Shown here in pieces: positions 4,300 to 46,217 of a stretch of DNA of 64,000 bases. This stretch comes from Phycisphaerae bacterium (lineage in GTDB: Bacteria; Planctomycetota; Phycisphaerae; UBA1845; UTPLA1): NCBI GenBank assembly GCA_030432035.1, contig JAUIHO010000001.1, positions 74 to 64,073 of the forward strand. Direction: 5' to 3'. The position numbers and the translations under genes were made by a program. The notes beneath the pieces are model-generated. The model was not told the DNA's origin and made no database searches. It was given only the letters and a program-made list of their open reading frames with translations. Within the stretch, counting starts at the first letter, position 1, and the number at the start of each line of letters is the position of its first letter.

Positions 4300-5298
4300 T
4301 TATTGGATGGGATGGTCGTGCAGCCACCCGGCGAGTCTTTTCAGACCTGCCTCCACCGAAATCTGCGGCTCATAACCAAGATCGCGCCGCGCGGCGGAGA
4401 TATCGAACCAGTGGGCGGTCGAAAGTTCGTGCACGACAAACCGCGTTAGCCGCGGTTCGCGTTTGATTCGCAATCCGCCGTAGATCAATTCGAGCATCGT
4501 TGCGACGCTCAGCGCCACGCGCTTGGGCACCGACTTGGTAACCGGCGGCTTGCCACCCGCAGCGAGAATCGCGTTAACCAAATCCCAAAGCAGCCAGGGT
4601 TCGCCGTTGGTGATGAAATAGGCCTTTCCCGCGCAATCTGCGTCGGGAGCGAGACGGTCGGCCGCGCACAAGTGGGCGTCAGCCGCGTTATCGATATACA
4701 CCGAGTCGATCTTTTTATTGGTGCCGCCGATGCGCCGAAGGGCGCTTGCTCGCTGCAAGATGCGCGGCACGAGATGGTTGTCGCGCGGCCCCCATATCAA
4801 ATGCGGGCGCAATGCGACGGTCGCGAGTCCGCTGCTGTTGGCGGCGAGGACGGCGCGTTCGGCCTTGGCTTTGGTCGCGGGATACGCCGTGAGATACGAT
4901 TTGGGATACGGCAACGATTCATCTTCGCCTTCGCAATCCCCCGGATGAAACACGACGCTGGGCGAACTGGTATAGACGAGTTTAGGCACATCGCATTGGC
5001 GTGCCGCTTGGAGGACGACCTCGGTGCCAATCACATTGGCATTATGGTAATCCTGATACGGCCCCCACACGCCAGCCTTGGCGGCCACATGGAAGATGAC
5101 ATCAACACCTTCGCATGCCTTCGTTACAGCCGTCGCGTCGGTTAAGTCCGCTCGGATCGTTTCAATGCCAAGCGCTCGAAGCTCGGGATAATCACCACGC
5201 GCGATCGACCGCACCGAAGCGCCGCGTTTCAATAGACGTTCGACAATGGCGCGCCCGAGAAAGCCGCCGCCGCCCGTGACGAGTGCCCGTTCACTCAT
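4300..5298 (-). CDS. NAD-dependent epimerase/dehydratase, 3-beta-hydroxysteroid dehydrogenase/isomerase-like SDR
   Basis: It has the 'VTGGGGFLGRAIV' Rossmann motif and the 'YPATKAKAE' (YxxxK) catalytic motif. It overlaps the stop of the upstream psd gene by 4 bp. Confidence 0.8.
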   Translation of the reverse strand: MSERALVTGGGGFLGRAIVERLLKRGASVRSIARGDYPELRALGIETIRADLTDATAVTKACEGVDVIFHVAAKAGVWGPYQDYHNANVIGTEVVLQAARQCDVPKLVYTSSPSVVFHPGDCEGEDESLPYPKSYLTAYPATKAKAERAVLAANSSGLATVALRPHLIWGPRDNHLVPRILQRASALRRIGGTNKKIDSVYIDNAADAHLCAADRLAPDADCAGKAYFITNGEPWLLWDLVNAILAAGGKPPVTKSVPKRVALSVATMLELIYGGLRIKREPRLTRFVVHELSTAHWFDISAARRDLGYEPQISVEAGLKRLAGWLHDHPIQ

Positions 5299-33416: not shown

Positions 33417-34667
33417 ATGAATCATGCTAACAAGCCACCGGTAGGCCTGTTGGGCTTTTGTATTCCCGCGATGGAAGCGATGGATTCGATCGGGCGACCG
33501 TTCGTGTCGGTCGTTCCGCCCGAGTTTGAGCCGTACATGCAGGAAAACGGCCTCGAATACGTTACGTGGGATTTCGAACGGGTTAATGAGAAATCGATTC
33601 AATTGGCCGACGACTTGCGCGCCAAGGGCGTCGAGTTGGCCATTCCGTTGTACGAACAAACCGTCGAGTGGGCCGGAGCGCTCAACGGTGAGTTTCGCAA
33701 CGATCGCAAGCTATTTACGCGGTATCTGTTGTTCCGCGATAAGGCGATGATGAAGCGCCGGGCCCAAATGTATGGCATTCGCGTGGGTGTTTTTGAAGAA
33801 GCCGACGACCGCGATGCGGTGCGCAAGTTCTTCAAACGTGTAAACACGGCGGCAGTCAAGGTGGACGGCGATATCGAAGACCCGATTCACCTGAAGCCGC
33901 TCGATGCGGCGGGCTGTAAGGGTCACCGCATGATTCGCGCGTTGGCGGATATCGACGAGATTCGCGACGATGAGTTTCCCTGCCTCTTGGAAACCCACCT
34001 TCAGGGGCAGGAGTTTTCATGCGAGGTGTTCGTTCACAACGGTAAGGTGCGTTTCCTCAACATTACTGAGTACGTGCATCTTGGTCACAGCAACTTTGTA
34101 CCGGCGTCGCCGGCGTTGGAAGAGCGTCGCCCGCTAATCCAAAAGGCTGTGGAAGAACTGATTAGCGCGTTCGAAATTCAATACGGCATGATCCATCCCG
34201 AGTTTTTCATCACGCCGGACAATGTGATCAGCTTTGGTGAAGTCGCGGCACGTGTGCCCGGCGGGCACATCTTTGAATTGATCGAAAAGGCTTACGGCTT
34301 CAATCCGTTCGTGGCCTTCGCCCTTGCAGCCGACCCGTCAACGACCGACGCGGAATTCGAAGAATTCTTCCCCAAAATCGGTGAGCACAAAGAGTTCGCG
34401 GGCTGCCTGATGGTGTACCCGCGCAAACGAGTCGTCACTCGCGTCGACGTGCCCGAGCGTTTGTTGGAAGACGATTATTACGAGAAGCACAACCTCTTCG
34501 TGCCGGCCAACCCTAAGGTGGCGGAGCGCGAAGCGTTTGGCGATCACTACGGCACTGTCTATTTCCGCGGCGACGACTGCGAACGCATGCGCGATTTGTT
34601 GCGCGATTACGAGGAAGTGGACTTCTACGATAGTGACACCCCTCAACAAGAGCAGGTAACTGCATGA
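33417..34667 (+). CDS. ATP-grasp domain protein (L-amino-acid-ligase-like size and architecture)
   Basis: 416-aa ORF. ATP-grasp hallmarks are present: 'LKPLDAAGCKG', 'LLETHLQGQEFSCEVFVHNGKV', and 'HPEFFIT...FGEVAARVPGGHI'. Confidence 0.7.
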   Translation: MNHANKPPVGLLGFCIPAMEAMDSIGRPFVSVVPPEFEPYMQENGLEYVTWDFERVNEKSIQLADDLRAKGVELAIPLYEQTVEWAGALNGEFRNDRKLFTRYLLFRDKAMMKRRAQMYGIRVGVFEEADDRDAVRKFFKRVNTAAVKVDGDIEDPIHLKPLDAAGCKGHRMIRALADIDEIRDDEFPCLLETHLQGQEFSCEVFVHNGKVRFLNITEYVHLGHSNFVPASPALEERRPLIQKAVEELISAFEIQYGMIHPEFFITPDNVISFGEVAARVPGGHIFELIEKAYGFNPFVAFALAADPSTTDAEFEEFFPKIGEHKEFAGCLMVYPRKRVVTRVDVPERLLEDDYYEKHNLFVPANPKVAEREAFGDHYGTVYFRGDDCERMRDLLRDYEEVDFYDSDTPQQEQVTA

Positions 34668-36682
34668 CAGACGTAGGTACCGAGGCAGGCCAACTGCCCA
34701 AGACCGACGCGCATGCGTCCGGCGATCTGGTCGATCGATTGGGCGCTAAACTCGACACGATGTTGGACAAGCTCGGCGAAGCGAAGCCCTTCGCGAAGAG
34801 CACCTATCAGACCGATGTGTTTCAAACGTCGGAGTTGATGCTTTCGTCGGATAACGGCATCCGAGCGCTGTACGAGCGCGCCCACCGCTTTGACGATGTC
34901 GGACTATTCGCCAGTGGTGCCTGGGCCGACGCGGCCAAGCTGCAACCGCCACTGGTAGAGGGCAGCCTCAAAGCACACGGCGTTTATCCGATCGTCGAGA
35001 TATTGAGCGACTTGCGCATGTTGGCGATTGCAAGCGGCAAACAGAACCATCCGGAAGTGTCGGCAGCCGATGCGACCAACTTCCTTCAGGAAGTGATGGC
35101 GCTAAATCTGCAATTCGTCTTCCCCGGCGATACCGAGCAGGAACGCATTGAAGGCGGCCCGCATTACGAATCATCGTTGCGGTTGTTTAGATTGCTCTCT
35201 GATGAATTGGGACTCTCGTTTATTCGCGAGTACGTCGTCGCCGAAATCCGTCAGATCATTGCGCAACGACCGATCATGACGGGACGCGTGCGCACGATGA
35301 TTCGCATGGCGGCACGTACGCCCGACTCGAACGGCGACGATACGATTTCCGGTCGATTGAGTGAACTCACGGAAGCGATCGACGGGCCCAGCACGCTCTG
35401 CAAGCAAGCGACGACGTTGGCCGAATACCGCAAATTGTTGCAGCAGTGTGAAAAATCAACGCTGCGCGACGAAGCCGAACAGTTCGCTACGACGGTAAGC
35501 AAGACGGGTTTGGTCGCGCCGCAGCATGCGATTCTTTTGCGTTATTTGGCGACGAAAGAACCCGACATCATTCCCGAGGCGTTGTCGCTGGATGATTACG
35601 GCGCGGCGGAATTTGAGGGACAAATCGAATTCGCCCGACAGCTGGTGAAGGCTGCTATCTTTCCGACGACGGCGCAGTGCATACTCGGATTCGCACGCGT
35701 TTTAGAGCGCGGCCTGTTATCACGCCAAGAAGTCAGCGTCGGTCTCGAACGACTGGTCGATCTCGACTTGCAACCCGATATACGCCGATCGCTACTAGCG
35801 CAGCGGTCAAGGCACGACGGCGTCACAGCCAATTCGATTTTGCTAGCGGGCGCTTTGTCGGTGCTGGGTCAACCGCTCGGCGTCGGGCAAGGTCGCAACC
35901 CGACCTGCCAAGCCGCGCGCGGTATTAGCCTGTGGTCACAATATGCGCCGGCGTATTTGATAGAGTTGGTCGTATCGGCGGCCCGCGATGGTGTGGTGGA
36001 GATTCCGTTCGAAGGGCAAACCGTTCGCTCGGATAAGGCGGTCGTTGAAATGGGTCGCTCGCTCGATCTCAATCTCGACCCGGTATCCGTCGTCCTGGTA
36101 CCGCACCTCGACCGAATTTACGAACAGATGATGAAGCTTGTCGCGTTGCGCAACGAAGACGGTCATAAGTGGGTCAACCCCGCGCTGTATGGTCGCTGGG
36201 TCGCACGCGGCTTTTCGTCGGTCTTTGCCGACGTTGCGCTGACGACGATCTCCGGTTATGAAGATTTCGTGCGACGGTTCTTCGCCACGCATCATCCGTC
36301 GTTTAACGAAGGCCATTCGCTGATGTATCCCAACCCGGTTGGGTTATGCATCACCAACGGCCACGGCGATTACCTCGGCCCGCATGCGGTGTCGTTACAA
36401 CGCGTCTCCGAAGGGCCGGACGGCAAACTGCGGATTTACTTTTTCAATCCGAACAACGAAGGCCGACAGGATTGGGGTCACGATGTGAAGCCATCCATCG
36501 CAGACAATGGCGAGTTGGAAGGTGAGTCGTCGTTACCGTTCAATCAATTCGTCTCGCGGCTGTACGCATTTCATTACAACCCGTACGAAGTCGGCGATGC
36601 GTACGCCGTGCCCGATGCGGTCGTGAATGAAATTCAAAAAGAAGCCAGCGACACGTGGGGCCGCGCGTTTCAGTGGATGTAG
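34664..36682 (+). CDS. hypothetical protein; C-terminal half has a papain-like Q-x5-C...H...N signature
   Basis: 672-aa ORF with an ATGA overlap to the ATP-grasp gene. The signature residues are Gln409-x5-Cys415 ('GQGRNPTCQAARG', Cys codon 35906-35908), 'GPHAVSL' (His574) and 'FFNPNNEG'. The N-terminal half is helical. Confidence 0.5.
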   Translation: MTDVGTEAGQLPKTDAHASGDLVDRLGAKLDTMLDKLGEAKPFAKSTYQTDVFQTSELMLSSDNGIRALYERAHRFDDVGLFASGAWADAAKLQPPLVEGSLKAHGVYPIVEILSDLRMLAIASGKQNHPEVSAADATNFLQEVMALNLQFVFPGDTEQERIEGGPHYESSLRLFRLLSDELGLSFIREYVVAEIRQIIAQRPIMTGRVRTMIRMAARTPDSNGDDTISGRLSELTEAIDGPSTLCKQATTLAEYRKLLQQCEKSTLRDEAEQFATTVSKTGLVAPQHAILLRYLATKEPDIIPEALSLDDYGAAEFEGQIEFARQLVKAAIFPTTAQCILGFARVLERGLLSRQEVSVGLERLVDLDLQPDIRRSLLAQRSRHDGVTANSILLAGALSVLGQPLGVGQGRNPTCQAARGISLWSQYAPAYLIELVVSAARDGVVEIPFEGQTVRSDKAVVEMGRSLDLNLDPVSVVLVPHLDRIYEQMMKLVALRNEDGHKWVNPALYGRWVARGFSSVFADVALTTISGYEDFVRRFFATHHPSFNEGHSLMYPNPVGLCITNGHGDYLGPHAVSLQRVSEGPDGKLRIYFFNPNNEGRQDWGHDVKPSIADNGELEGESSLPFNQFVSRLYAFHYNPYEVGDAYAVPDAVVNEIQKEASDTWGRAFQWM

Positions 36683-36768: not shown

Positions 36769-36867
36769 TGCTTTTACTATTGAACCGCAGCGTCGCGCTT
36801 GGTATTCTCAGCAATTCATCGGTTGCGATCGCCAGCGTCAACATCTATCTCGCCAACGGGCTGCGGC

Positions 36868-38640
36868 ATGAGTGCGACGGACAAACCATCCAAGATTTAC
36901 CTCGACGAGCTAATCGCCGGTCGCGCTGCCGAGTTCTATCGTTACGTGCGCCGTGTCGATTCGCCGTCGCTGTTGCAATATGTCGTCGAACGCTGGAAGC
37001 AGGCACCAGCCGATTGGGCGCGGACGCAAGCGATAGCCTATTTTGACGAGCCGCTGGATTGCCCCGGTCATGAGTTGGTCGTCAAACGCCTGTTCAAAGA
37101 CGCGGAAGAGCGCGGCGATGACGAGGTGTTGGCCGCCTGCACGGTCGCCTTCGATCGGTTGGTGCGGCGCAAGCGACGGCGCGGATATCGATACGATCCG
37201 ACTTCGCAACAATTTGCGCAACAAGAATATCTCGCCAGCCCGCGCGATCAAATCCCTCACCTGCCGAAGGATAAAGGCAGTCGCTGGGCCGGTGTCGATA
37301 CGGCATCTTACGTTGCCTATTTCAATACGAAGGCCAGCCGCCTGTTTAGCTATCGCACGCGTTATTACCTGCGGCGGCGCGCGTGGCGGTATTACCGACG
37401 CATGGGGTATCAACATCCCGACCGATACGTGCGGTCTGTCGCGACGTTTCTACAGCGGTACAGGGACAGCGATTTTGCGAAAGGCGAGAATATTCTCGAC
37501 AATTGGTCGATGCTGCATGCGTGTTACTTCCACCACGACGCGCTGGAGTTCAGTGATACAAAGGCCAAATTGGTTGAAGGCCACTCGCTAGCCGAGTTAA
37601 CGCCCGCCCCCTATCACGATGCGCTGTGGCGACAGACCGAAGCGTTCGATGTGCTCATCGAATTGTTGGGCACCGCCGAGAGCAGCCTTGTTCGCCTGTG
37701 GGCATTGGAATATCTCAATCAACACCATCGCGCATTGGTTTCATCGCTGACGCCGCAACGTCTAATGCCGCTATTGAACCATGCGGACGAGCGCGTGCAG
37801 AACTTCGCGGCGGAAGCGTTCTCGCAATTAGAGAATCTTGGCAGCCTTGGTATCGACGATTGGCTCGCACTTTTGAAGCTGTCGAGCATTAGCACGCTAA
37901 CGTTAATTTGCGATGCCATGCGTAAGCACGTCGCATCGGATCGGCTCGATCAGCAGCAATTGATCGAACTGGCCTGCGCCCGGCCCGACCCTGTCGCGCG
38001 AATGGGACTAGAGATGGTGCAGGCGCGCCATGCCGAACGCCCCTTCGCGCCGACCGAATTGTGTCGTTTGGCCCATGTCGAGTGTTTATCAATCGCGCGG
38101 CAAGCGGCCGAGTGGGTGCTGTCATTGCTCGGCACCGCATCAACATACGACGTCGAATGGGTATCGCCCTTCTTCGACAGCTTAAATCTGCCGACGCGTT
38201 TAGTAGCGATGGAGTGGCTTATGCCCAAAGCGCCCGGGTGGAACGACCCCGCATTGTGGGCGCGGCTCATCGAAACGCCTTTCGACGACGTGCGGCTCGG
38301 CGTTGTGCAGCGGATCGAACAACGCCTGCGATTGCCCGGCGGTGAAGTCGACCGCCTCGCGCCGGTCTGGACGGCTGTTATTCTTGGCGTACATCGTGGC
38401 GGTCGGCGCAAGCCCGATGCGTTGCGTCAAATCATCAAGGCGATGATCGCGGACCCTGCGCATGTCGAACGATTGTTACCGATCGTGGCCGTTGCCGTTC
38501 GATCCATTCGCGCACCCGAGCGCCGCGCGGCCCTTGCGGCCCTTGCACAGTTGATCGATGCCGCCCCGAACATGCAGGCGACGCTTCAACAAGCGATTCC
38601 GGAATTAACGTTGCCACCGATAGCCGCGGAGATGGCTTGA
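36868..38640 (+). CDS. HEAT/ARM-like helical-repeat protein, function unknown
   Basis: The start is taken at ATG 36868 (MSATDKP). The C-terminal two-thirds show recurring HEAT-like segments ('ERVQNFAAEAF', 'DPVARMGLEMV', 'PTRLVAMEWL', 'DDVRLGVVQRI', 'PERRAALAALAQL'). An Arg/Tyr-rich N-domain is present. Confidence 0.5.
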   Translation: MSATDKPSKIYLDELIAGRAAEFYRYVRRVDSPSLLQYVVERWKQAPADWARTQAIAYFDEPLDCPGHELVVKRLFKDAEERGDDEVLAACTVAFDRLVRRKRRRGYRYDPTSQQFAQQEYLASPRDQIPHLPKDKGSRWAGVDTASYVAYFNTKASRLFSYRTRYYLRRRAWRYYRRMGYQHPDRYVRSVATFLQRYRDSDFAKGENILDNWSMLHACYFHHDALEFSDTKAKLVEGHSLAELTPAPYHDALWRQTEAFDVLIELLGTAESSLVRLWALEYLNQHHRALVSSLTPQRLMPLLNHADERVQNFAAEAFSQLENLGSLGIDDWLALLKLSSISTLTLICDAMRKHVASDRLDQQQLIELACARPDPVARMGLEMVQARHAERPFAPTELCRLAHVECLSIARQAAEWVLSLLGTASTYDVEWVSPFFDSLNLPTRLVAMEWLMPKAPGWNDPALWARLIETPFDDVRLGVVQRIEQRLRLPGGEVDRLAPVWTAVILGVHRGGRRKPDALRQIIKAMIADPAHVERLLPIVAVAVRSIRAPERRAALAALAQLIDAAPNMQATLQQAIPELTLPPIAAEMA

Positions 38641-40346
38641 TGCAGGTGCAGACCGCCTATTTTGGAAGCAGTGCCATTCGCCAAGCCGCCGGCGGTCGCG
38701 TTCTGCAATTCGCACCCGATCTGTCGCGCGAGCGCGTCGGTTTTGATGCCCCGCTGAAAGACCCCGTCCGTTTTCGCGAAGCCATCAGCGCCTTGCACGA
38801 TGTGGTGATCAACGACCTGCGCTTTAAACCGCGCGATAAGTCGGCTTATGAAGCATGGAAAGTTCAACAACGCGAGCGCGAATCTCAAATTCGTAGCGCC
38901 GCCTATATGGATGTGAAGAAAACCCTCGATGCGCGCGTCGGTCAGCCGATACCGGCGGACCTCAAGCGCGAGTACGGTCGAGCACGCAAGCGCTATTGGT
39001 CGGCACGCCGCAGCTTAAACAACTGGCTGCGCGAAAATGATAAGGAACTGTGGCGGCAACTGATGCCGTACGACCCGGTGATTACCGTTGCCGATGACGT
39101 CGTGTTCTTCGAATGCTTCTCCGCCGACGAATCGAGCTACGGATGTTTGACGGTCGAGCGTGACGCGTGTTTCGGCGCATCGGATACCACCGAGTTCGGC
39201 ACGACCAACGTCGACTATTCGTGGGACTTGTATCATAACTTTCAGTCGCTGCGAACCTATCGCGAAACGCGCTTTGCCATCGACCCCGAAGGCTTTGCCT
39301 TGGCGACGCAGGATCACCCCGATTATCGCGAAGAAAAAATCGACCTGCCCGATGGTTGGTTGCGCGGTTTTATGCAACTGCAAGCGGCGATGTGTTTGCC
39401 GACGCGAAAGGTATCGCTCTCGGTTGGTGCGGTGTATTCGCTGCTGGCATTTCTGAAGCGACGCAAAGCACGCACGAGCCCGCGTGCGATTCGATTTGAA
39501 CTCACGCCGGGGCGGCCACCGCGACTGGTGTTGGAACCGTGGGAACAGCCGATCGATAGTTTCGGCACGATATACAACGGTCCGGCGGGCGACCCGCTGC
39601 GCATTTGGGGCCGCCGACGGCTGCTGGTGCTGTCGCGCGTGTTGCCTTTGGCCGACGGCGTGGATGTGTATTTATTGGGAACGGGTTTACCGAGCTTTTG
39701 GGTCGTGCGCATGGGCCCAATGCGATTGACGCTGGGGCTATCGGGCTGGACGACGAACGATTGGACGCGCGGTTCGGCGGTCGACATGTTGATGCCGCCG
39801 TCTCATCCGCAAGATTCGGATGTATCCCGCCTTGCCGACGTATTGCAAACCGAGCGTAGCGCGCCGTTGAGTGACTTGGCGTCGCGTGCCAGTCTCGCGC
39901 CCGATTTGGCTGCCGCCGGGCTCAACCAACTCGCATTGCGCGGTCAGGCGATATACGACCTCGATGCCGATCGATTTCGATGGCGTCAGGTACTACCGAT
40001 GGCGCTGAGCGAAAAAGAGTTGGGTCCGCCACATCCAGAACGTGTAGGCGCGCTTCAGATACTCGTGCGTCAGCAAGTGCAGGTTTCATCGGCACAGCGC
40101 GGACCGCGCGGTGGATTGATTCTCGTTGGCAAATCCGAAGGCAAACCGGTCGAAGCATTGATCGACGATGACGGTATCATTCGAAAAGGCAAATGTCTCT
40201 GCAGCTACTTCTATAAGTACGGCATTCGCAACGGTCCGTGTCGACATTTGCAAGCGTTACGCGATCAGCATACACGCACCGGCGACGGAGCCGGTACATC
40301 GACATTGAGTTGGTACGAACGAACGCGACAATGGGCCGGGCGCTGA
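38637..40346 (+). CDS. SWIM zinc-finger domain protein
   Basis: C-terminal CxCx12CxH ('CLCSYFYKYGIRNGPCRH', nt 40194-40247) matches the SWIM signature. It makes a 4-bp overlap with the upstream gene. Confidence 0.75.
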   Translation: MMQVQTAYFGSSAIRQAAGGRVLQFAPDLSRERVGFDAPLKDPVRFREAISALHDVVINDLRFKPRDKSAYEAWKVQQRERESQIRSAAYMDVKKTLDARVGQPIPADLKREYGRARKRYWSARRSLNNWLRENDKELWRQLMPYDPVITVADDVVFFECFSADESSYGCLTVERDACFGASDTTEFGTTNVDYSWDLYHNFQSLRTYRETRFAIDPEGFALATQDHPDYREEKIDLPDGWLRGFMQLQAAMCLPTRKVSLSVGAVYSLLAFLKRRKARTSPRAIRFELTPGRPPRLVLEPWEQPIDSFGTIYNGPAGDPLRIWGRRRLLVLSRVLPLADGVDVYLLGTGLPSFWVVRMGPMRLTLGLSGWTTNDWTRGSAVDMLMPPSHPQDSDVSRLADVLQTERSAPLSDLASRASLAPDLAAAGLNQLALRGQAIYDLDADRFRWRQVLPMALSEKELGPPHPERVGALQILVRQQVQVSSAQRGPRGGLILVGKSEGKPVEALIDDDGIIRKGKCLCSYFYKYGIRNGPCRHLQALRDQHTRTGDGAGTSTLSWYERTRQWAGR

Positions 40347-40385
40347 TGCGTGCCGCAGCCGCTTGCCGCATAACGACGAGCATAA

Positions 40386-40600
40386 GGGGGTAACCGATCA
40401 CCTGAGACCATCTTGCTGCGGCGTACCGCCGTGGTTGAACATGACTATCCATGCTTCCCCAAGGCCGTTGTTCGTATGGCCCGACGCGTATGTAGGTGCG
40501 TCGGCCATGACAAGCCGAGGCTTACGACGCACCTACATACGCGTCGGGCCTTGGTTAACGACCTCGGTCCGGAGATCTGAAGTCAGGTGATCGGCCCCCC
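40386..40600 (+). ncRNA. candidate retron msr-msd RNA
   Basis: There is a perfect 12-bp inverted repeat: a1 at 40394-40405 (CCGATCACCTGA) and a2 at 40583-40594 (TCAGGTGATCGG). It is extendable by GGGGG 40386-40390 / CCCCC 40595-40599 across a 3-nt bulge. The first unpaired base after a1 is G40406. A small hairpin lies at 40419-40431. A 26-bp perfect stem joins 40478-40503 and 40525-40550, with a 21-nt loop. The region ends 24 nt before the RT start. Confidence 0.55.
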
Positions 40601-40624
40601 ACTTTTTTGTTTAGGTAACGCGTC

Positions 40625-42241
40625 GTGGGATTGTTTGACTTTGTCAAAAAGCTGTTCGGCGGATCGGACGCCGGCACCGTCTGCCCGAGTTGCGGCACGC
40701 CTTATCGCGATGGCGCTCGCTACTGCGGACAGTGCAATCATCCGCGCGGAGTGCCCACATCGCGCCCCACGATTCCGCCGCCGGTCGCACGCCAACCCAA
40801 GGTGCAAAACCTGACCGGCCTCGATGCGCAGAAGTTTGAACCGATGACGACGGCCGATGCGAAGGCCACCATCAAAGAAGCCAGCACGCTGCGGTCGGCG
40901 TTTCTCGATCCGTTAACCGTCATTCCCGATCCAACGTTGCCGCGCATTCAAATTATCGATCGCACGATGGTCGGCCTTGGACTCATTTCGCCCGAAGAAC
41001 TCACGCACATCCACGAAGTCGGCCTGCAATACGCCGAGATGAAGGGCGATCTGTCGGTCGCGCGGGCGGCGGGCGAACGGGCGGTGCGACTGTCACGCGA
41101 AGAGCGCGCGGCGCGCAAACAGCAGAAGATCGAAGAGGCGCAGCGCCGACGGCAAGCGCGGGCCGAAGCCATCGCGCGACGCCGAGCGACGGATATCGTG
41201 TTTCTCGGCCGCGGTGTGTCGCGCGGGTTGGCCGATCGGCGCGCGAATGTTGAACGGCTGAAGGCAAACGACTTGCCGATTATCTCGTCGCCTGCCGAAT
41301 TGTCAGTGGCGATGAACATTCCGATCCCACGGCTGCGGTTCCTAGCATTTCATAGCGATGCGCCGCAACGCGTGCACTACGTCACGTTTACAGTACCAAA
41401 GAAGAGCGGCGGCACGCGGTTGTTGTCAGCACCGCATCAATCGCTGGCGACTGCTCAACAGTGGATATTGGAGAACATCCTGAGCAAGGTTTCGCCGCAC
41501 GATGCAGTGCATGGATTCGTGCCGGGGCGTTCGACGCTAACCAATGCCGAGCCGCACGTTGGCGCGGATACGGTCGTGAATATAGATTTGAAGAATTTCT
41601 TTCCGACGATCACGTTCGCGCGCGTGCTGGGCGTGTTTCGTGCGCTGGGTTACTCGCCCGCCGTCGCGACGATACTGGCATTGTTGTGCTCCGAAGCGCC
41701 GCGGCGCCCCATGAAGTACGACGGGCAAACGTATTACGCCGCCACCGGGCCGCGCGCTCTACCGCAAGGCGCTTGCACCAGCCCGGCGCTGTCGAACCTC
41801 GTTGCGCGTCGACTGGATCGGCGCATGCTTGGCATCGCGCAAAAACTCGGCTGGACGTACACGCGTTACGCCGACGATCTGTCTTTTTCGCAGCACGGTG
41901 AGTTGACTGCCAGCATTGGATACTTGCTAGCACGGATTCGACACATTGCGGACGACGAAGGCTTTTCGGTCAACGAAAAGAAGACGCGGGTGCAGCGCCG
42001 CAATCAGCAACAGTCGGTCACCGGCCTAGTCGTCAACGATCGTATAAACGTGCCGCGCAAAACGATTCGCCGCTTGCGCGCTATCCTGCATCGCGCGCAA
42101 CGCGAAGGATTGGCCGCGCAGAATCGCGACAACCATCCGCACTTTGAAGCATGGGTACGTGGCATGATCGCTTACATTTCGATGTCAAACCCCGAAGCAG
42201 CGCAACGACTGCGAACGGAATTTGATAAAATTGGAAGGTAG
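40625..42241 (+). CDS. retron-type reverse transcriptase with N-terminal zinc-ribbon/coiled-coil extension
   Basis: It has a GTG start. RT motifs are present: 'NIDLKNFFPTIT', 'LPQGACTSPALSNL', 'YADD' (41867-41878) and the retron-typical 'SVTGLVVN' (VTG at 42017-42025). The pre-RT helix 'RLRFLAFH...YVTFTVPKKSGGTR' is also present. Residues 1-215 contain 'CPSCG...CGQC' and an Arg/Glu-rich helix. Confidence 0.85.
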   Translation: MGLFDFVKKLFGGSDAGTVCPSCGTPYRDGARYCGQCNHPRGVPTSRPTIPPPVARQPKVQNLTGLDAQKFEPMTTADAKATIKEASTLRSAFLDPLTVIPDPTLPRIQIIDRTMVGLGLISPEELTHIHEVGLQYAEMKGDLSVARAAGERAVRLSREERAARKQQKIEEAQRRRQARAEAIARRRATDIVFLGRGVSRGLADRRANVERLKANDLPIISSPAELSVAMNIPIPRLRFLAFHSDAPQRVHYVTFTVPKKSGGTRLLSAPHQSLATAQQWILENILSKVSPHDAVHGFVPGRSTLTNAEPHVGADTVVNIDLKNFFPTITFARVLGVFRALGYSPAVATILALLCSEAPRRPMKYDGQTYYAATGPRALPQGACTSPALSNLVARRLDRRMLGIAQKLGWTYTRYADDLSFSQHGELTASIGYLLARIRHIADDEGFSVNEKKTRVQRRNQQQSVTGLVVNDRINVPRKTIRRLRAILHRAQREGLAAQNRDNHPHFEAWVRGMIAYISMSNPEAAQRLRTEFDKIGR

Positions 42242-42355
42242 AATGCTGGCTGATTCCTGTGCAAGTATTTGAGCCGCAACCAAGGAAGCCTGCGGACTTT
42301 CACAGTCTATTAGCCGGTGCCACAGCGCGACTGTTGCTCTCAATCCTGAAGCGGT

Positions 42356-45300
42356 CTAGTCGTCCGATTCCCACAATCGCAATACGCAAGGTCTTTTTCC
42401 ATAGGCCCCGCTGCCCGTGGCAATCACGCTACCATCGGGGCTTATGCCGACGGCCCAGATGTTCGATTCGTCACCGCGCAGTTTGAGAACGATTTGGCCA
42501 GAGGCAACGTCGGTTAACACGATCGCGCGGTCGTGTGAGCTTGAGACCAACCGTGTGCCATCGGGGGTAAATGCCAGATCGAGAACGTCCGTCGCGTGCG
42601 CGGGTATGGTTCGCAACGTCGCCAACGAAACCGCATTTAGCAAATGTATCTCACCCGATGCAAGGCCGACGGCAATTGCAGCACCGCGCGGCGAGATTGC
42701 CATCGCTTGAATGGACTTGCCGAAGTCATGGCGGCGAACGATCGAGCCCGCTGCCATGTCCCATTCGATTAGCGACTGATCCTGCGATGCTGAATACAGT
42801 CGCGTGCCATCCGGTGTGAACGACAGCTTCCAAATCCAACCTTGGTGGCCGCTTAGTTCGCGAATGAGCTTGCCCGACTGCGTATCCCACAGCAACACCC
42901 GTTGATCGATGCCGCCGGAAGCAACGCGTCTACCATCGGGGCTAAATACGGCGGTGTGTACGGCGTGTTCGTGTGACGCGAGCGCGTGTTTCAATTTTAA
43001 CGTTTCGGCATCCCACAATCCGACGACACCGGATCGGCCTGCCGTCGCAATCAGCTTGCCATCGGGAGAGAAGCAAACATCCTGAAAGCCGCGCGGCAGC
43101 TCTTCCAATTCGCCCAACTGCAAACGTTGAGCGACATCCCAGATACGCACGGCGCCATCGAATGACGCCGTTGCGATGTGCTTACCATTCGGGCTGACGT
43201 CGATCCCTCGGATCAACCGTTGATGGGCGACGATGGATTCTTTTCGCGTGAGTGCGTTTACATCCCATGTCCTAATCGTGGCATCCCAAGATGCCGTAAC
43301 GAGATGCGAACCGTTGGGTGTGAAGTTTACACGGCCCACTGCCGCATCGTGGCCATGGGCGATGCTGATGTTGCGATGCGAATCGACGTCGTAAATTCGG
43401 AGCGTTTTATCGACACCTGTCGTGGCGATCAATGTTCCATCTGGCGACCATGCGACGGCGAGTGCACCGCCTTCATGGTCTGCGATCTCCCATAACAGCG
43501 TTCCCGCGTCGACGTCAAAGATCTTAACGTTGCCGTTGTTGGAACTGATCGCCAACTGCTTTCCGTTATGGGAAAACGAAACACCCGTAATGCCACCGTT
43601 CTTTTCTTTATGAAGTGCCTCCACAGTCCCGGTAGCTGTATCGAGAAGTAGCGTCGCGCCATCTTCGGTACCGATGGCCATACGTGATTCGTTTGGGCTA
43701 AGCGCCAATCGACACGCGTTACCCTCTGTCACACGATGGGCAAACTGCACAGTGCCTGTTTCAACATCCCACGCGCGCACGAATCCATCATCCGCCGACG
43801 CCCACACGCGCTCGCCCTGTCGATCTAGCAAAACGGCTTGCATCCACGCCCCTTCCACCCGCGCTTCGAAGATAGGAAGATCAAGTTCGGGCGTTCGATA
43901 AGCTCGCACTAAATCGTCGCCGCAAGCTGCAATCAGATCACCATCCGCGCTGACATGCACATCGTTAACCACGTATTCAAAATTGGGGCTGCGCGCGACA
44001 ACCTGACCGCTCGCAATGTCCCAAAGCTGGATGCATCGATCGTCGGCAGGGTATGCACCTGCCGCCGTCGCTAACCATCGGCCATCAGCGCTAAGCGACG
44101 CCGCGCGGATGGGGCCTGTCGCTCCACGCAAGGTGCGTTCGCTGCGATCGAGTTGACGCTTTAGATAGTGGTACTCCCAATTGCGCAAGTGCTCAGGCAC
44201 ACCCGCGAGCCGCAAGCGCGCGGCGGGCACGCCATGGGCGCGCAGCTCGGCATCGGCGGCCACGATATTGGCGACGTAAGATTGAAACTCCGCTTCGGCA
44301 CGCTGTTGGTCGGCCACCTTCCGCGCGGCGGCTTCCGACGCTTGCGCGCGTTCGGCGTCGCGTGCGCGACGTTCGGCGCGCTGCTCCGCTTTGCCGGTCT
44401 TCCAGGCAAAGCGCAAACTAATCCCGGTCGCGGCGATCAACGTCAGCACCACCAGCACCAACGACGCCAACACACTCGGATGTCGCCGCGCGAACAGTTT
44501 GAGTTGATAACCGGTCGAAGGCCTCCGCGCTTCAATCGGCAACTTCTCAAGGTAATGTTGCAGGTCGCGGCTCAGGTCGGCGGCGGATTGGTAGCGACGC
44601 TCGGACGTTTTCTCCAACGCCTTGCCCGCAATCGTTTCGATATCGCCTCGCAACTTTGGATTATTTCGGCCCAAACGCTGCGGCGGTTGCCGCTTGATGG
44701 CTTCCGCAATTGACAAGATCGCCGAGCTTTTGAAATCGTATGGCAAATGCCCCGTCAACAGCTCGAACAACACAACACCCAACGCATACACGTCGGTGCG
44801 AATGTCGATGCGATGCGGGTCGGCATCGAGTTGCTCCGGGCTCATGTATTGCGGCGTGCCGATCAACTGCCCCGCTTGCGTGTTGAAATCGAGCGTTAGC
44901 AAATCGCGATCGACGGCACGCGCGACGCCGAAATCAATCACCTTTAATTGACCATCGCGGCCAACGAGAATGTTGCTCGGCTTCAGATCGCGATGAATGA
45001 TGCCATGTTGATGACCGTGATGGACGGCTGCACACGCATCGATGATGAGACGCACGCGTTCGTCAATCCCCAGTTGATGCTGGTCGGCATACTGCGTCAC
45101 CGGAATCGCATCAGGCACCAATTCCATCGCAAAGAAATGCATCGACGCCGCACCATGCTGATGCGTGCCCGCTTCATAAATCTGTGCGATATTCGGGTGC
45201 TGCAGGTGCGCTAAGATATCCGCCTCGTAGCGAAACCGGCGCGCGGCCGATGCCGTTTCGTCGGTCGAGCGCAACAGCTTTAGCGCGACGCGACGGCGTG

Positions 45301-45625
45301 GGCTATCTTGCTCGGCTTCGTAAACCGTGCCCATGCCGCCAGCGGCAATCTTCCGCACGACGGTATAGCGGCCGACGCGTTGTGGCTGTTCGACGGTGCC
45401 CGCCTGATCTTGCGCCGCGAGCGTGTCGTGCGGCACCTTAGTTAAGACCGACACCGCCAGAAAATCACCCGCCTCATCGTGATACGACAGCAGCGACAAT
45501 ACCTCGTCTTGCAACGCGGCATCGCCCTTGCACATTTCGATGATGCGCGGCGTGCGCACGCCCGGTGCCAATTCGCGTACTTGAAGGAACACGTCGCGGA
45601 CTCGCTGGTGACGATCAGCGGACAT
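42356..45625 (-). CDS. Ser/Thr protein kinase with TM helix and C-terminal WD40 beta-propeller(s)
   Basis: The kinase motifs 'HRDLKPSNILV', 'DFGVA' and 'YMSPEQ' are present. The TM helix is 'VLASLVLVVLTLIAATGI'. More than 12 WD40-like repeats follow ('...WD..'). Confidence 0.9.
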   Translation of the reverse strand: MSADRHQRVRDVFLQVRELAPGVRTPRIIEMCKGDAALQDEVLSLLSYHDEAGDFLAVSVLTKVPHDTLAAQDQAGTVEQPQRVGRYTVVRKIAAGGMGTVYEAEQDSPRRRVALKLLRSTDETASAARRFRYEADILAHLQHPNIAQIYEAGTHQHGAASMHFFAMELVPDAIPVTQYADQHQLGIDERVRLIIDACAAVHHGHQHGIIHRDLKPSNILVGRDGQLKVIDFGVARAVDRDLLTLDFNTQAGQLIGTPQYMSPEQLDADPHRIDIRTDVYALGVVLFELLTGHLPYDFKSSAILSIAEAIKRQPPQRLGRNNPKLRGDIETIAGKALEKTSERRYQSAADLSRDLQHYLEKLPIEARRPSTGYQLKLFARRHPSVLASLVLVVLTLIAATGISLRFAWKTGKAEQRAERRARDAERAQASEAAARKVADQQRAEAEFQSYVANIVAADAELRAHGVPAARLRLAGVPEHLRNWEYHYLKRQLDRSERTLRGATGPIRAASLSADGRWLATAAGAYPADDRCIQLWDIASGQVVARSPNFEYVVNDVHVSADGDLIAACGDDLVRAYRTPELDLPIFEARVEGAWMQAVLLDRQGERVWASADDGFVRAWDVETGTVQFAHRVTEGNACRLALSPNESRMAIGTEDGATLLLDTATGTVEALHKEKNGGITGVSFSHNGKQLAISSNNGNVKIFDVDAGTLLWEIADHEGGALAVAWSPDGTLIATTGVDKTLRIYDVDSHRNISIAHGHDAAVGRVNFTPNGSHLVTASWDATIRTWDVNALTRKESIVAHQRLIRGIDVSPNGKHIATASFDGAVRIWDVAQRLQLGELEELPRGFQDVCFSPDGKLIATAGRSGVVGLWDAETLKLKHALASHEHAVHTAVFSPDGRRVASGGIDQRVLLWDTQSGKLIRELSGHQGWIWKLSFTPDGTRLYSASQDQSLIEWDMAAGSIVRRHDFGKSIQAMAISPRGAAIAVGLASGEIHLLNAVSLATLRTIPAHATDVLDLAFTPDGTRLVSSSHDRAIVLTDVASGQIVLKLRGDESNIWAVGISPDGSVIATGSGAYGKRPCVLRLWESDD

Positions 45626-46217
45626 GCGCGCCGCTCTCGCTGAGATGGCGCAATAGCCAAGCGCGGGCCATCGCCCAATCGCCTTCGACAGTGCGCAGCG
45701 ATACGCCCATCACATCCGCCACTTCGCGATTGGTAAGGCCGCCGAAGAAACGCAGTTCGACGATTTCGGCCTGCCGCGCATCGAGATTGGCCAGCCGCGA
45801 CAACGCCGCATCCAAATCGAGTAGGTCGACATCTAACTGCGCCGCAGTATCGGTAACCACCGACAACGGCGAACGCTCCCGCATGCCGCCGCGCTTGGCC
45901 GCCTTCTTTGCCAACGCGTGATTGATAAGAATACGCCGCATGGCCCGCGCCGCGACGGCGAAGAAGTGGGCGCGATCGTTCCAAGCGGGCTGTTGACCGC
46001 CGACGAGTTTGATAAAGGCCTCATGCACCAATGCGGTCGGTTGCAGCGTGTGGTCGGCGCGTTCCTGGTCGAGATATTGCGCGGCAAGCGTACGCAGCGT
46101 TTGATAGACAGCCTCGAAAAGCCCGACCGTCGCTTGAGCATCGCCTGCGGCGGCGGCGCGGAGGTAGCGCGTGACCTGCGGGTTCGGGATCGGTTGGTGC
46201 GTGTCTCGGACCATCAT
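45615..46217 (-). CDS. ECF-type sigma factor (planctomycete kinase-associated type)
   Basis: The segments 'QPTALVHEAFIKL' and 'RFFGGLTNREVADVMGVSLRTVEGDWAMARAWL' are present. It overlaps the downstream kinase gene by 11 nt. Confidence 0.85.
   Translation of the reverse strand: MMVRDTHQPIPNPQVTRYLRAAAAGDAQATVGLFEAVYQTLRTLAAQYLDQERADHTLQPTALVHEAFIKLVGGQQPAWNDRAHFFAVAARAMRRILINHALAKKAAKRGGMRERSPLSVVTDTAAQLDVDLLDLDAALSRLANLDARQAEIVELRFFGGLTNREVADVMGVSLRTVEGDWAMARAWLLRHLSESGAHVR

What the first reader, a model, noticed from the sequence alone, without database searches (positions are those of the whole stretch)
40386..40600. Candidate msr/msd: a1/a2 inverted repeats, unpaired G, and a 26-bp perfect hairpin immediately upstream of the RT
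Seen in sequence:
- CCGATCACCTGA (40394-40405) is the exact reverse complement of TCAGGTGATCGG (40583-40594).
- GGGGG (40386-40390) can pair with CCCCC (40595-40599) across a 3-nt bulge.
- The first base after the a1 arm is G40406, which faces G40582 and so is unpaired.
- Between the arms lie a 5-bp hairpin (40419-40431) and a 26-bp perfect stem (40478-40503 / 40525-40550, 21-nt loop).
- The stem can be lengthened by alternative CCAAGG/CCTTGG pairing.

By my rough estimate, a perfect 12-bp inverted repeat in a spacer of about 280 nt is expected about 10^-3 times by chance.

Established knowledge:
- Retron ncRNAs are about 150-250 nt and lie just 5' of the RT.
- They are closed by a1/a2 repeats.
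- The branching G sits at the end of that stem.
- They carry a long msd hairpin that templates the msDNA.

The layout here matches on all four counts. The predicted msDNA would be the complement of roughly 40460-40580.
Basis: partly seen in the sequence, partly recalled or inferred. Interest (0 to 1): 0.8.

Follow-up and report, generated by a model that had tools for sequence, protein, structure and literature searches.

The report
Type XIII retron msr/msd non-coding RNA
The 215-base structured spacer just upstream of the reverse transcriptase is very probably the template RNA of a retron of the known Mx162-type family (type XIII). It sits in a Planctomycete-like genome, so this is a well-supported but ordinary new member of a known system.

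Summary
The a1/a2 repeat (40394-40405 / 40583-40594, flanked by GGGGG/CCCCCC) and the 26-bp perfect hairpin are the two longest inverted repeats within 300 nt anywhere in the 64-kb window.

The flanking genes score as type XIII retron parts in PADLOC:
- HEAT/ARM, 2.7e-194
- SWIM, 7e-181
- reverse transcriptase (RT), 3.5e-162; it has the NAxxH, VTG and YADD motifs

The same element lies on the RT strand in all but three related loci with enough upstream DNA, from Planctomycetota, Verrucomicrobiota and Myxococcota.

- **Covariation:** 93% of cells are paired, against 33-45% in slid controls, and 36 of 51 pairs show double changes.
- **Invariant bases:** G40406 and the facing G40582 are invariant in 74/74 elements.
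- **Spacing:** the two Gs lie 170-178 nt apart in 70/74.
- **DNA-level selection:** the long stem has almost no G-U pairs (1 G-U against 12 A-C), whereas a1/a2 has 37 G-U against 8 A-C. This suggests the stem is selected on the complementary, reverse-transcribed strand.
- **Close relative:** its DNA is 93.5% identical across the region, yet the element lies in the longest difference-free run.

The predicted msDNA is about 123-130 nt. msDNA itself is untested. Verdict: new member of a known kind.

The parts
36799..38640 (+). HEAT/ARM-repeat accessory gene of the type XIII retron (start codon uncertain)
   Evidence: PADLOC HEAT-ARM_XIII E = 2.7e-194; weak Pfam HEAT hits; found upstream of the SWIM gene in most related loci.
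38637..40346 (+). SWIM zinc-finger protein, the putative effector of the type XIII retron
   Evidence: PADLOC SWIM_XIII E = 7.1e-181. CxCx12CxH motif KCLCSYFYKYGIRNGPCRH. Acidic residues D145, D153, E158, D192, E231 are invariant in 19 homologs, matching approximately the DEDE motif described in PMC7736814. Pfam SWIM is hit in 5/19 family members. No PDB relative.
40386..40600 (+). Whole msr-msd non-coding RNA, from a1 to a2
   Evidence: Covariance-model hit 40378-40607, 229.4 bits, the only strong hit in the window. Fold z = -10.6. No Rfam family matches. One difference in 215 nt against L083, versus 4.6-9.4% in the flanking genes.
40386..40405 (+). a1 arm (outer GGGGG 40386-40390, perfect core 40394-40405)
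   Evidence: The a1/a2 pairs covary, for example CTGA/TCAG, CTAA/TTAG, TCAA/TTGA and CCAA/TTGG. G-U pairs are tolerated: 37 G-U against 8 A-C.
40406..40406 (+). Predicted branching (priming) guanosine
   Evidence: First base after a1. G in 74/74 homologous elements, in the context A[G]A/C-C. This fits the AG(C/A) priming context reported for retrons (PMC6868368).
40415..40435 (+). Conserved msr stem-loop (9 bp, 3-nt loop)
   Evidence: Helix 3 is 98% paired, with an invariant U-G pair and frequent G-U pairs. G-U makes up 26% of cells, so it is an RNA-level structure.
40440..40453 (+). Weak second msr hairpin (CAUG/CAUG), not conserved
   Evidence: Folds in the window, but relatives show no consistent hairpin or covariation.
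40452..40581 (+). msd: predicted template for the msDNA. The msDNA is its complement, made from 40581 leftwards. The 3' end is inferred to lie somewhere in 40450-40459.
   Evidence: The complement folds as DNA at -45.7 kcal/mol, z = -8.4. Helices inside it lack G-U pairs. The start at the base 5' of the opposing G is by analogy with Ec86 (own knowledge, plus the Fig. 1 legend of PMC6868368). The G-to-G spacing is conserved at 170-178 nt.
40459..40469 (+). 5' arm of the msd basal helix; pairs with 40557-40567
   Evidence: Helix 4: 99% paired, with two pairs showing compensatory changes.
40478..40550 (+). Long msd hairpin. 26-bp perfect stem 40478-40503 / 40525-40550, with a small conserved apical helix 40512-40515 / 40520-40523.
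   Evidence: In helix 5, 17 of 18 consensus pairs have double changes. Only 1 G-U against 12 A-C in 1311 cells.
40557..40567 (+). 3' arm of the msd basal helix
40582..40582 (+). Invariant G opposite the branching G
   Evidence: G in 74/74, in the context A[G]T. Two opposing Gs are a described feature of retron ncRNAs (PMC7736814, Fig. 2 legend).
40583..40600 (+). a2 arm (perfect core 40583-40594, then CCCCCC)
40601..40612 (+). T-rich tail ACTTTTTTGTTT after a2; role uncertain
   Evidence: Not called a terminator and changed in L083/L084. However, a T-rich tail after a2 is common in the family: 51/74 loci have at least 5 T in 8 nt, against 7/74 upstream of a1.
40625..42241 (+). Retron reverse transcriptase, 538 aa, GTG start. 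It has a long N-terminal extension with a zinc ribbon (aa 18-40). YADD lies at 41867-41878.
   Evidence: PADLOC RT_XIII E = 3.5e-162. Pfam RVT_1 and Zn_Ribbon_1. NAEPH, VTG and YADD are present and invariant in 22 homologs. The closest solved structure is the Ec86 RT, 1.9e-43.

Best explanation
Bases 40386-40600 encode the msr-msd RNA of a type XIII retron, the family founded by Myxococcus Mx162. The steps below are marked as shown or inferred.

1. **Transcription (inferred).** The RNA is transcribed with the neighbouring genes.
2. **Folding (shown by covariation).** The RNA folds so that a1 pairs with a2. This places G40406 opposite G40582.
3. **Priming (inferred from the family's known chemistry).** The RT encoded immediately downstream recognises the conserved msr stem-loop and the conserved msd base. 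It uses the 2'-OH of G40406 as primer.
4. **Copying (inferred).** The RT copies the RNA from about A40581 leftwards, through the long hairpin, and stops near 40450-40459.
5. **Product (inferred).** This yields a branched RNA-DNA molecule whose DNA part is about 123-130 nt and forms a long hairpin.
6. **Function (inferred only by analogy).** In other retron types the RT-msDNA complex controls an effector. The SWIM protein, which has a conserved acidic DEDE-like motif, and the HEAT/ARM protein are the presumed partners here. Their action is unknown.
For: **Gene set.** It scores as type XIII. The RT has the retron motifs.

**Position and distribution.** The element lies on the RT strand, directly upstream of the RT. 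It is found in all but three (L045, L074, L080) of the related loci with enough upstream DNA, from three to four phyla.

**Covariation.** 51 pairs; 93.2% of cells paired against 33-45% when slid; covariation score 0.562 against 0.08-0.12; 0 of 500 shuffles reach it.

**Invariant Gs and spacing.** The branching G and the opposing G are invariant in 74/74. Their spacing is 170-178 nt in 70/74.

**Wobble asymmetry.** a1/a2 has 37 G-U against 8 A-C, and the msr loop has 26% G-U. The long stem has 1 G-U against 12 A-C (Fisher 4e-17 and 1.5e-6). This is what selection on the complementary DNA strand would produce.

**Folding of the predicted DNA.** z = -8.4.

**Purifying selection.** Window positions 40308-40593 form the longest difference-free run in a 6.7-kb comparison at 93.5% identity.
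Against: - No msDNA, transcript ends or branch have been observed for this organism or its close relatives.
- No Rfam family matches.
- The element could not be aligned directly with the experimentally mapped Mx162, Mx65, Sa163 or Ne144 RNAs, because those sequences could not be retrieved.
- The Fisher tests treat related sequences as independent and use a model-fitted alignment. The independent MAFFT alignment shows the same trend with smaller counts.
- No type XIII retron has a demonstrated biological function.
Confidence: 0.9

Rival explanations
1. The structure is an RNA-only element. It could be a terminator or attenuator that ends the HEAT-SWIM transcript, or a leader that regulates RT translation. 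In either case it is not reverse transcribed.
For: A GC-rich closing stem (GGGGG/CCCCC plus a1/a2) is followed by ACTTTTTTGTTT. T-rich tails after a2 are enriched across the family: 51/74 against 7/74 upstream. A partial terminator role could coexist with the retron role.
Against: - No terminator-like site is found by the scan.
- The 26-bp hairpin ends 52 nt before the T run.
- The T run is broken in the nearest relative, while the 247 nt before it are identical.
- The element accompanies the RT in loci with no SWIM or HEAT gene nearby, and in some loci it sits upstream of SWIM.
- The near absence of G-U in the long stem, with A-C tolerated, is not expected for an RNA-only helix.
- The two invariant opposed Gs have no role in a terminator.
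Confidence: 0.05
2. It is a retron-derived relic. The RNA is conserved and binds the RT, but the system no longer makes msDNA, or it makes a product very different from the one predicted.
For: Type XIII retrons are reported to be largely vertically inherited, and a non-defence role has been suggested (PMC7736814). The window locus sits among housekeeping genes (arg genes, ECF sigma factor and kinase), not in an obvious defence island.
Against: The catalytic YADD and the retron motifs are intact and invariant. Both priming Gs are invariant. The DNA-level pairing signature implies continuing selection on the cDNA.
Confidence: 0.04
3. It is a chance palindrome, or a repeat or mobile-element end unrelated to the RT.
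For: None beyond the bare existence of inverted repeats.
Against: There is a single copy in the window. z = -10.6. It is conserved and covaries across 70+ loci, always beside the RT.
Confidence: 0.01

Closest known systems
Type XIII retrons (Mestre et al. 2020, PMC7736814): Retron-Mxa1 (Mx162), Retron-Mxa2 (Mx65), Retron-Sau1 (Sa163), Retron-Nex2 (Ne144)
   Same: - The RT is of the same clade (PADLOC RT_XIII) and has a long N-terminal extension.
- The SWIM protein has CxCx12CxH and a DEDE-like motif.
- A HEAT/ARM gene lies upstream.
- The ncRNA lies directly 5' of the RT, with long a1/a2 arms, a priming G in an AG(A/C) context, and a long msd hairpin.
- A Myxococcus sp. locus (L082) and Polyangium loci carry a recognisably homologous element (120 and about 145 bits).
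   Different: - The host is a Planctomycete-like genome (best RT hits are Phycisphaerae MAGs), not a myxobacterium.
- The predicted msDNA is about 123-130 nt, not 162, 163, 144 or 65 nt.
- The a1/a2 core is shorter (12 bp perfect, about 20 bp with the G/C runs), against the 34 bp I recall for Mx162.
- The RT N-terminus carries a zinc ribbon.
- Searches seeded with myxobacterial RTs did not list the M. xanthus RTs among the 120 best. This lineage is therefore a different subclade, and no msDNA has been shown for it.
Retron-Eco1 (Ec86), type II-A
   Same: It is the closest solved RT structure (E = 1.9e-43). The overall ncRNA logic is the same: a1/a2 arms, two opposed Gs, msr hairpins and a long msd stem.
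   Different: The ncRNA sequences are unrelated. The effector differs (a nucleoside deoxyribosyltransferase-like protein rather than SWIM plus HEAT/ARM). The Ec86 RT has no N-terminal extension.
Intrinsic (Rho-independent) terminator
   Same: A GC-rich stem is followed by a T run at 40603-40608.
   Different: The stem encloses 177 nt of conserved, covarying structure. It is not detected as a terminator, and the T run is not conserved in the nearest relative.

Membership tests
Retron (msr-msd RNA plus RT) | RT of the retron clade with the NAxxH motif, VTG triplet and YADD catalytic site | tested here: met
   NAEPH, VTG and YADD are present in the translation and invariant in 22 homologs. All the best PADLOC hits are retron RTs. 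The best PDB hits are retron RTs.
Retron (msr-msd RNA plus RT) | Structured ncRNA next to the RT on the same strand, closed by the terminal inverted repeats a1/a2 | tested here: met
   The a1/a2 pairs covary (helices 1-2, 74-90% paired, 9 of 10 pairs with double changes).
Retron (msr-msd RNA plus RT) | Conserved priming G at the inner end of a1, facing a second G | tested here: met
   G40406 and G40582 are invariant in 74/74. The context is AGA/AGC, as in known retrons (PMC6868368).
Retron (msr-msd RNA plus RT) | One to three msr hairpins and one long msd stem-loop | tested here: met
   One strongly conserved msr hairpin (40415-40435) and a long msd hairpin with a basal helix. The second msr hairpin is weak.
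Retron (msr-msd RNA plus RT) | Production of msDNA joined to the RNA by a 2'-5' bond | not testable with these tools
   There is only indirect support: the G-U/A-C asymmetry shows selection on the complementary strand.
Retron (msr-msd RNA plus RT) | Match to a curated RNA family model | tested here: not met
   No Rfam 15 family matches 39800-41200, even at E up to 10. Rfam appears to hold no model for this ncRNA type, so this does not argue against membership.
Type XIII retron | Linked SWIM zinc-finger protein (cluster 114: DEDE motif, CxCx12CxH) | tested here: met
   PADLOC SWIM_XIII 7.1e-181; the motif is present; the acidic residues are invariant.
Type XIII retron | HEAT/ARM-repeat accessory gene upstream of the SWIM gene | tested here: met
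   PADLOC HEAT-ARM_XIII 2.7e-194; synteny in most related loci.
Type XIII retron | ncRNA homologous to those of Mx162, Mx65, Sa163 and Ne144 | not tested
   These sequences could not be obtained. Homologous elements were found in Myxococcus sp. RHSTA-1-4 and Polyangium.
Intrinsic terminator | Short GC-rich hairpin followed at once by a U run | tested here: not met
   No site in 39900-40900. The hairpin ends at 40550 and the T run begins at 40603.

The most novel reading that the evidence does not exclude
The element may be more than a routine retron template.

**Observations behind this reading.**
- Across four phyla the msr core, the msd base and the G-to-G distance (170-178 nt) are almost fixed, while the msd stem sequence turns over completely.
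- Some relatives carry two tandem ncRNAs with the same core but different stems (L033, L035).
- A T-rich tail follows a2 in most loci.

**The reading.**
- The msDNA stem would be a length-measured, sequence-variable specificity module read by the HEAT/SWIM proteins, with some genomes making two different msDNAs from one RT.
- The a1/a2 stem plus the T tail would act as a built-in partial terminator that sets the ratio of ncRNA to RT.
Probability: 0.15. Interest if true: 0.55.

Novelty: new member of a known kind. Interest (0 to 1): 0.27.

Why it matters
**Annotation.** It pins down, to the base, the likely template RNA, priming G and msDNA of a retron in a Planctomycete-like genome. It shows that this ncRNA family is shared by Planctomycetota, Verrucomicrobiota and Myxococcota with an almost invariant core.

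**Open biology.** Type XIII is the oldest known retron family, yet I found no solved structure and no report of an effector mechanism for it. A well-defined, compact example with clear boundaries is a usable starting point for expression and msDNA mapping.

**Method.** The G-U versus A-C asymmetry is a simple sequence-only way to tell the DNA-forming part of a retron RNA from the RNA-only part.

**Limit.** None of this overturns current understanding.

Tried and rejected
- **Rfam.** A permissive search of 39800-41200 gave only two chance hits.
- **Promoter and terminator scan.** Nothing was found, so neither the transcription start nor the end could be placed.
- **Obtaining the Mx162 ncRNA for a direct alignment.**
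  - No supplements are held for PMC7736814.
  - The retron census preprint has nothing on type XIII.
  - Two further protein searches, seeded with Polyangium and Myxococcus sp. RTs, did not list M. xanthus.
  - A 485-aa RT (P0217) turned out to come from an unnamed MAG, with a G-to-G distance of 181 nt, not the 212 nt expected for Mx162.
Rejected in favour of 40459-69 / 40557-67 on covariation.
- **Second msr hairpin 40440-40453.** Relatives show no consistent structure there.
- **Upstream ATP-grasp and 672-aa genes.** They are not linked to the retron in any other locus, so they are not part of it.
- **SWIM protein.** No PDB relative was found, by single sequence or by profile. Pfam gives only weak SWIM hits.
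- **Structure prediction of the effector.** Not attempted, because only a single sequence could have been submitted.
- **Minus-strand covariance-model hit at 40459-40567 (24.6 bits).** It merely reflects the palindromic stem.

Full report
**1. The observation**

Reading 40200-40760 confirms every coordinate in the finding.
- GGGGG lies at 40386-40390.
- CCGATCACCTGA at 40394-40405 is the exact reverse complement of TCAGGTGATCGG at 40583-40594.
- CCCCCC follows at 40595-40600.
- G40406 sits opposite G40582.

The repeat finder reports the 26-nt perfect inverted repeat 40478-40503 / 40525-40550 with a 21-nt loop. It also reports a1/a2 as a 22-nt, 82% complementary pair 177 nt apart.

Scanned over the full 64 kb, these two are the longest inverted repeats within 300 nt. 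a1/a2 is the only repeat with a perfect 12-nt seed whose arms are widely separated.

As RNA, 40380-40615 folds at -127.2 kcal/mol (z = -10.6; none of 200 shuffles does as well). The fold closes with a1/a2.

**2. The surroundings**

Three genes on the + strand score as type XIII retron components in PADLOC.
- 36799-38640: HEAT-ARM_XIII, 2.7e-194.
- 38637-40346: SWIM_XIII, 7.1e-181.
- 40625-42241: RT_XIII, 3.5e-162.

The RT has Pfam RVT_1 and an N-terminal zinc ribbon. It shows NAEPH, VTG and YADD, all invariant among 22 homologs.

The SWIM protein carries CxCx12CxH and invariant acidic residues. These match, approximately, the DEDE motif described by Mestre et al. (PMC7736814).

That paper defines type XIII as RT clade 10. 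Its described members are Mx162, Mx65, Sa163 and Ne144, and the clade has its own ncRNA structure type.

Further out, the window holds arginine-biosynthesis genes, an ATP-grasp gene and an unknown 672-aa gene upstream. An ECF sigma factor and a kinase-WD40 gene lie downstream. The ATP-grasp and 672-aa genes are not linked to the retron elsewhere.

**3. Relatives**

The RT has thousands of homologs. The best named ones are Phycisphaerae and Planctomycetota MAGs, at 96%, 68% and 67% identity.

A genome scan returned 80 loci from Planctomycetota, Verrucomicrobiota, a Desulfomonilaceae MAG and Polyangium. Most have the order HEAT - SWIM - spacer of about 300 nt - RT.

Aligning the spacers shows three things.
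- A nearly invariant 5' block: ...AGAC...CUGCGGCGUUCCGCCGYGG...CUUCCCCAAGGCCGUUGUUCGU.
- A nearly invariant 3' block: GGCCUUGGUGAACGACCUYGGUCC...GAAGU.
- A central stem and outer arms whose sequences differ between loci but stay complementary.

A profile search and a covariance model find the element in all but three (L045, L074, L080) of the loci that have enough upstream DNA. It is always on the RT strand, and it occurs once in the window, at 229 bits.

**4. Structure and covariation**

The independent MAFFT alignment of 30 sequences was folded with RNAalifold. This gave 51 pairs, of which 36 have compensatory double changes. Counting pairs gave the following.

| Measure | Proposed structure | Controls |
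|---|---|---|
| Cells paired | 93.2% | 33-45% (partners slid 1-3 columns) |
| Covariation score | 0.562 | 0.08-0.12 (slid) |
| Column shuffles reaching the observed value | n/a | 0 of 500 |

In window coordinates:

| Feature | Coordinates |
|---|---|
| a1/a2 | 40395-40405 / 40583-40593, plus the G and C runs |
| msr stem-loop | 40415-40423 / 40427-40435 |
| msd basal helix | 40459-40469 / 40557-40567 |
| Long stem | 40478-40503 / 40525-40550 |
| Apical helix | 40512-40515 / 40520-40523 |

A second msr hairpin (40440-40453) folds in the window but is not conserved.

**5. The priming site**

In 74 full-length elements the base after a1 is always G, in the context A[G]A/C-C. The base before a2 is also always G, in the context A[G]T. 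The two Gs lie 170-178 nt apart in 70 of the 74, and 176 nt apart in the window.

Known retrons have a priming G in an AG(C/A) context at the inner end of a1 (PMC6868368). They also have two opposed Gs (PMC7736814, Fig. 2 legend). Both features agree with what is seen here.

**6. Which part is DNA?**

A G-U pair in the RNA becomes a C-A mismatch in the cDNA. An A-C mismatch in the RNA becomes a tolerable T-G in the cDNA. The counts below come from 73 distinct sequences.

| Region | G-U cells | A-C cells |
|---|---|---|
| a1/a2 | 37 | 8 |
| msr stem-loop | 170 (26% of cells) | 6 |
| Long stem (1311 cells) | 1 | 12 |
| Basal helix | 0 | 4 |

- Fisher's test gives 4e-17 for G-U versus Watson-Crick, comparing a1/a2 with the long stem.
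- It gives 1.5e-6 for G-U versus A-C between the same two regions.
- The MAFFT alignment shows the same trend.

The sequences are related, and the larger alignment is fitted to the model, so these p-values overstate the case. The direction is nevertheless clear. It is what selection on the reverse-transcribed strand predicts.

This puts the msDNA at least across 40459-40581 (123 nt). With the usual few-base RNA-DNA overlap at its 3' end, the estimate is about 123-130 nt. That complement folds as DNA with z = -8.4.

**7. Short-range conservation**

Two JGI metagenome contigs carry an RT 96% identical in protein. Their DNA is 93.5% identical to the window over 6.7 kb.

Window positions 40308-40593 are the longest stretch with no difference (286 nt). 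The a1-a2 interval has 1 difference in 215 nt, whereas the flanking genes differ by 4.6-9.4%.

The single difference removes the outermost pair of the 12-bp core. The T run becomes CACTTTCTG.

**8. The terminator alternative**

- No terminator-like site is found.
- The hairpin and the T run are 52 nt apart.
- The T run is not kept in the nearest relative.
- The element stays with the RT where SWIM and HEAT are absent within 5 kb, and in some loci it lies upstream of SWIM.

Even so, T-rich tails after a2 are clearly enriched in the family: 51/74 loci against 7/74 upstream of a1. A secondary role in partial termination, or as an extension of the a1/a2 stem, cannot be excluded.

**9. Comparison with what is known**

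This is a type XIII retron by gene content, RT clade and ncRNA layout.
- Type XIII retrons have already been counted in Planctomycetota (26 in the SPIRE survey, bioRxiv 10.64898/2026.05.14.725207).
- No type XIII protein has a solved structure.
- I could not retrieve Mx162 itself for a direct alignment.
- A Myxococcus sp. locus has a homologous element with about 32-nt a1/a2 arms and the same 176-nt G-to-G distance.

**10. Verdict**

The finding is a new member of a known kind. Confidence is about 0.9 that this RNA is the msr-msd template. msDNA production and the function of the system remain inferred.

Noticed in passing
L033:352-578 and 614-840; L035:4369-4606 and 4671-4909; L076:2430-2659 and 4519-4745: Some related loci carry two copies of the ncRNA. 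In L033 and L035 the copies are in tandem, share the msr core and have completely different msd stem sequences. In L035 the a1/a2 arms differ too. In L076 the stems are the same but a1/a2 differ. One RT may therefore make two msDNAs.
   Followed up: partly
L059:2602-2828, L066:2902-3126, L067:2785-3011, L069:2789-3034, L078:2864-3087: In these loci the ncRNA lies between the HEAT and SWIM genes instead of between SWIM and the RT. This suggests the RNA is cut out of a longer operon transcript wherever it sits.
   Followed up: no
L005, L008, L009, L011-L013, L016, L017, L021, L043-L045, L053, L058, L065, L075: These close RT homologs (all except L045 have a detected ncRNA) have no SWIM or HEAT homolog within 5 kb on either side. 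PADLOC found nothing in the neighbours of L008 and L075. They may be stand-alone cassettes, or the partners may be encoded elsewhere.
   Followed up: partly
window 40601-40612 and the equivalent position in 74 loci: A T-rich tail follows a2 in most family members (at least 5 T in 8 nt in 51/74). The region before a1 is A-rich (29/74). This could be an outer extension of a1/a2 or a terminator-like U tract.
   Followed up: partly
window 37567-37805 (inside the HEAT/ARM gene): This is the second-longest difference-free stretch (239 nt) against L083, in a region that is 93.5% identical overall. It is not notably conserved at DNA level in more distant relatives. It could be a recent recombination patch, or a nucleotide-level constraint of unknown cause.
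   Followed up: partly
window 33711-35483 and 42207-42360 versus L083: The close relative L083 lacks about 1.8 kb spanning the end of the ATP-grasp gene and the start of the 672-aa gene. It also carries about 5.4 kb of other genes (including JAB and ThiF domain proteins) right after the RT, where the window has the kinase-WD40 gene. The downstream flank of the retron is therefore variable between strains.
   Followed up: no
window 40676-40744 (RT residues 18-40): The RT N-terminus has a CxxC...CxxC zinc ribbon. Pfam detects it only here and in the 96%-identical relative. The first 12 residues (MGLF..L..LFG) and residues of about 60-200 are conserved across the family. The role of this N-terminal extension is unknown.
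   Followed up: no
window 42356-46217 (- strand): An ECF sigma factor gene (45615-46217) overlaps by 11 nt (45615-45625) the start of a 1089-aa Ser/Thr kinase with WD40 repeats (42356-45625). The pair converges on the RT gene.
   Followed up: no
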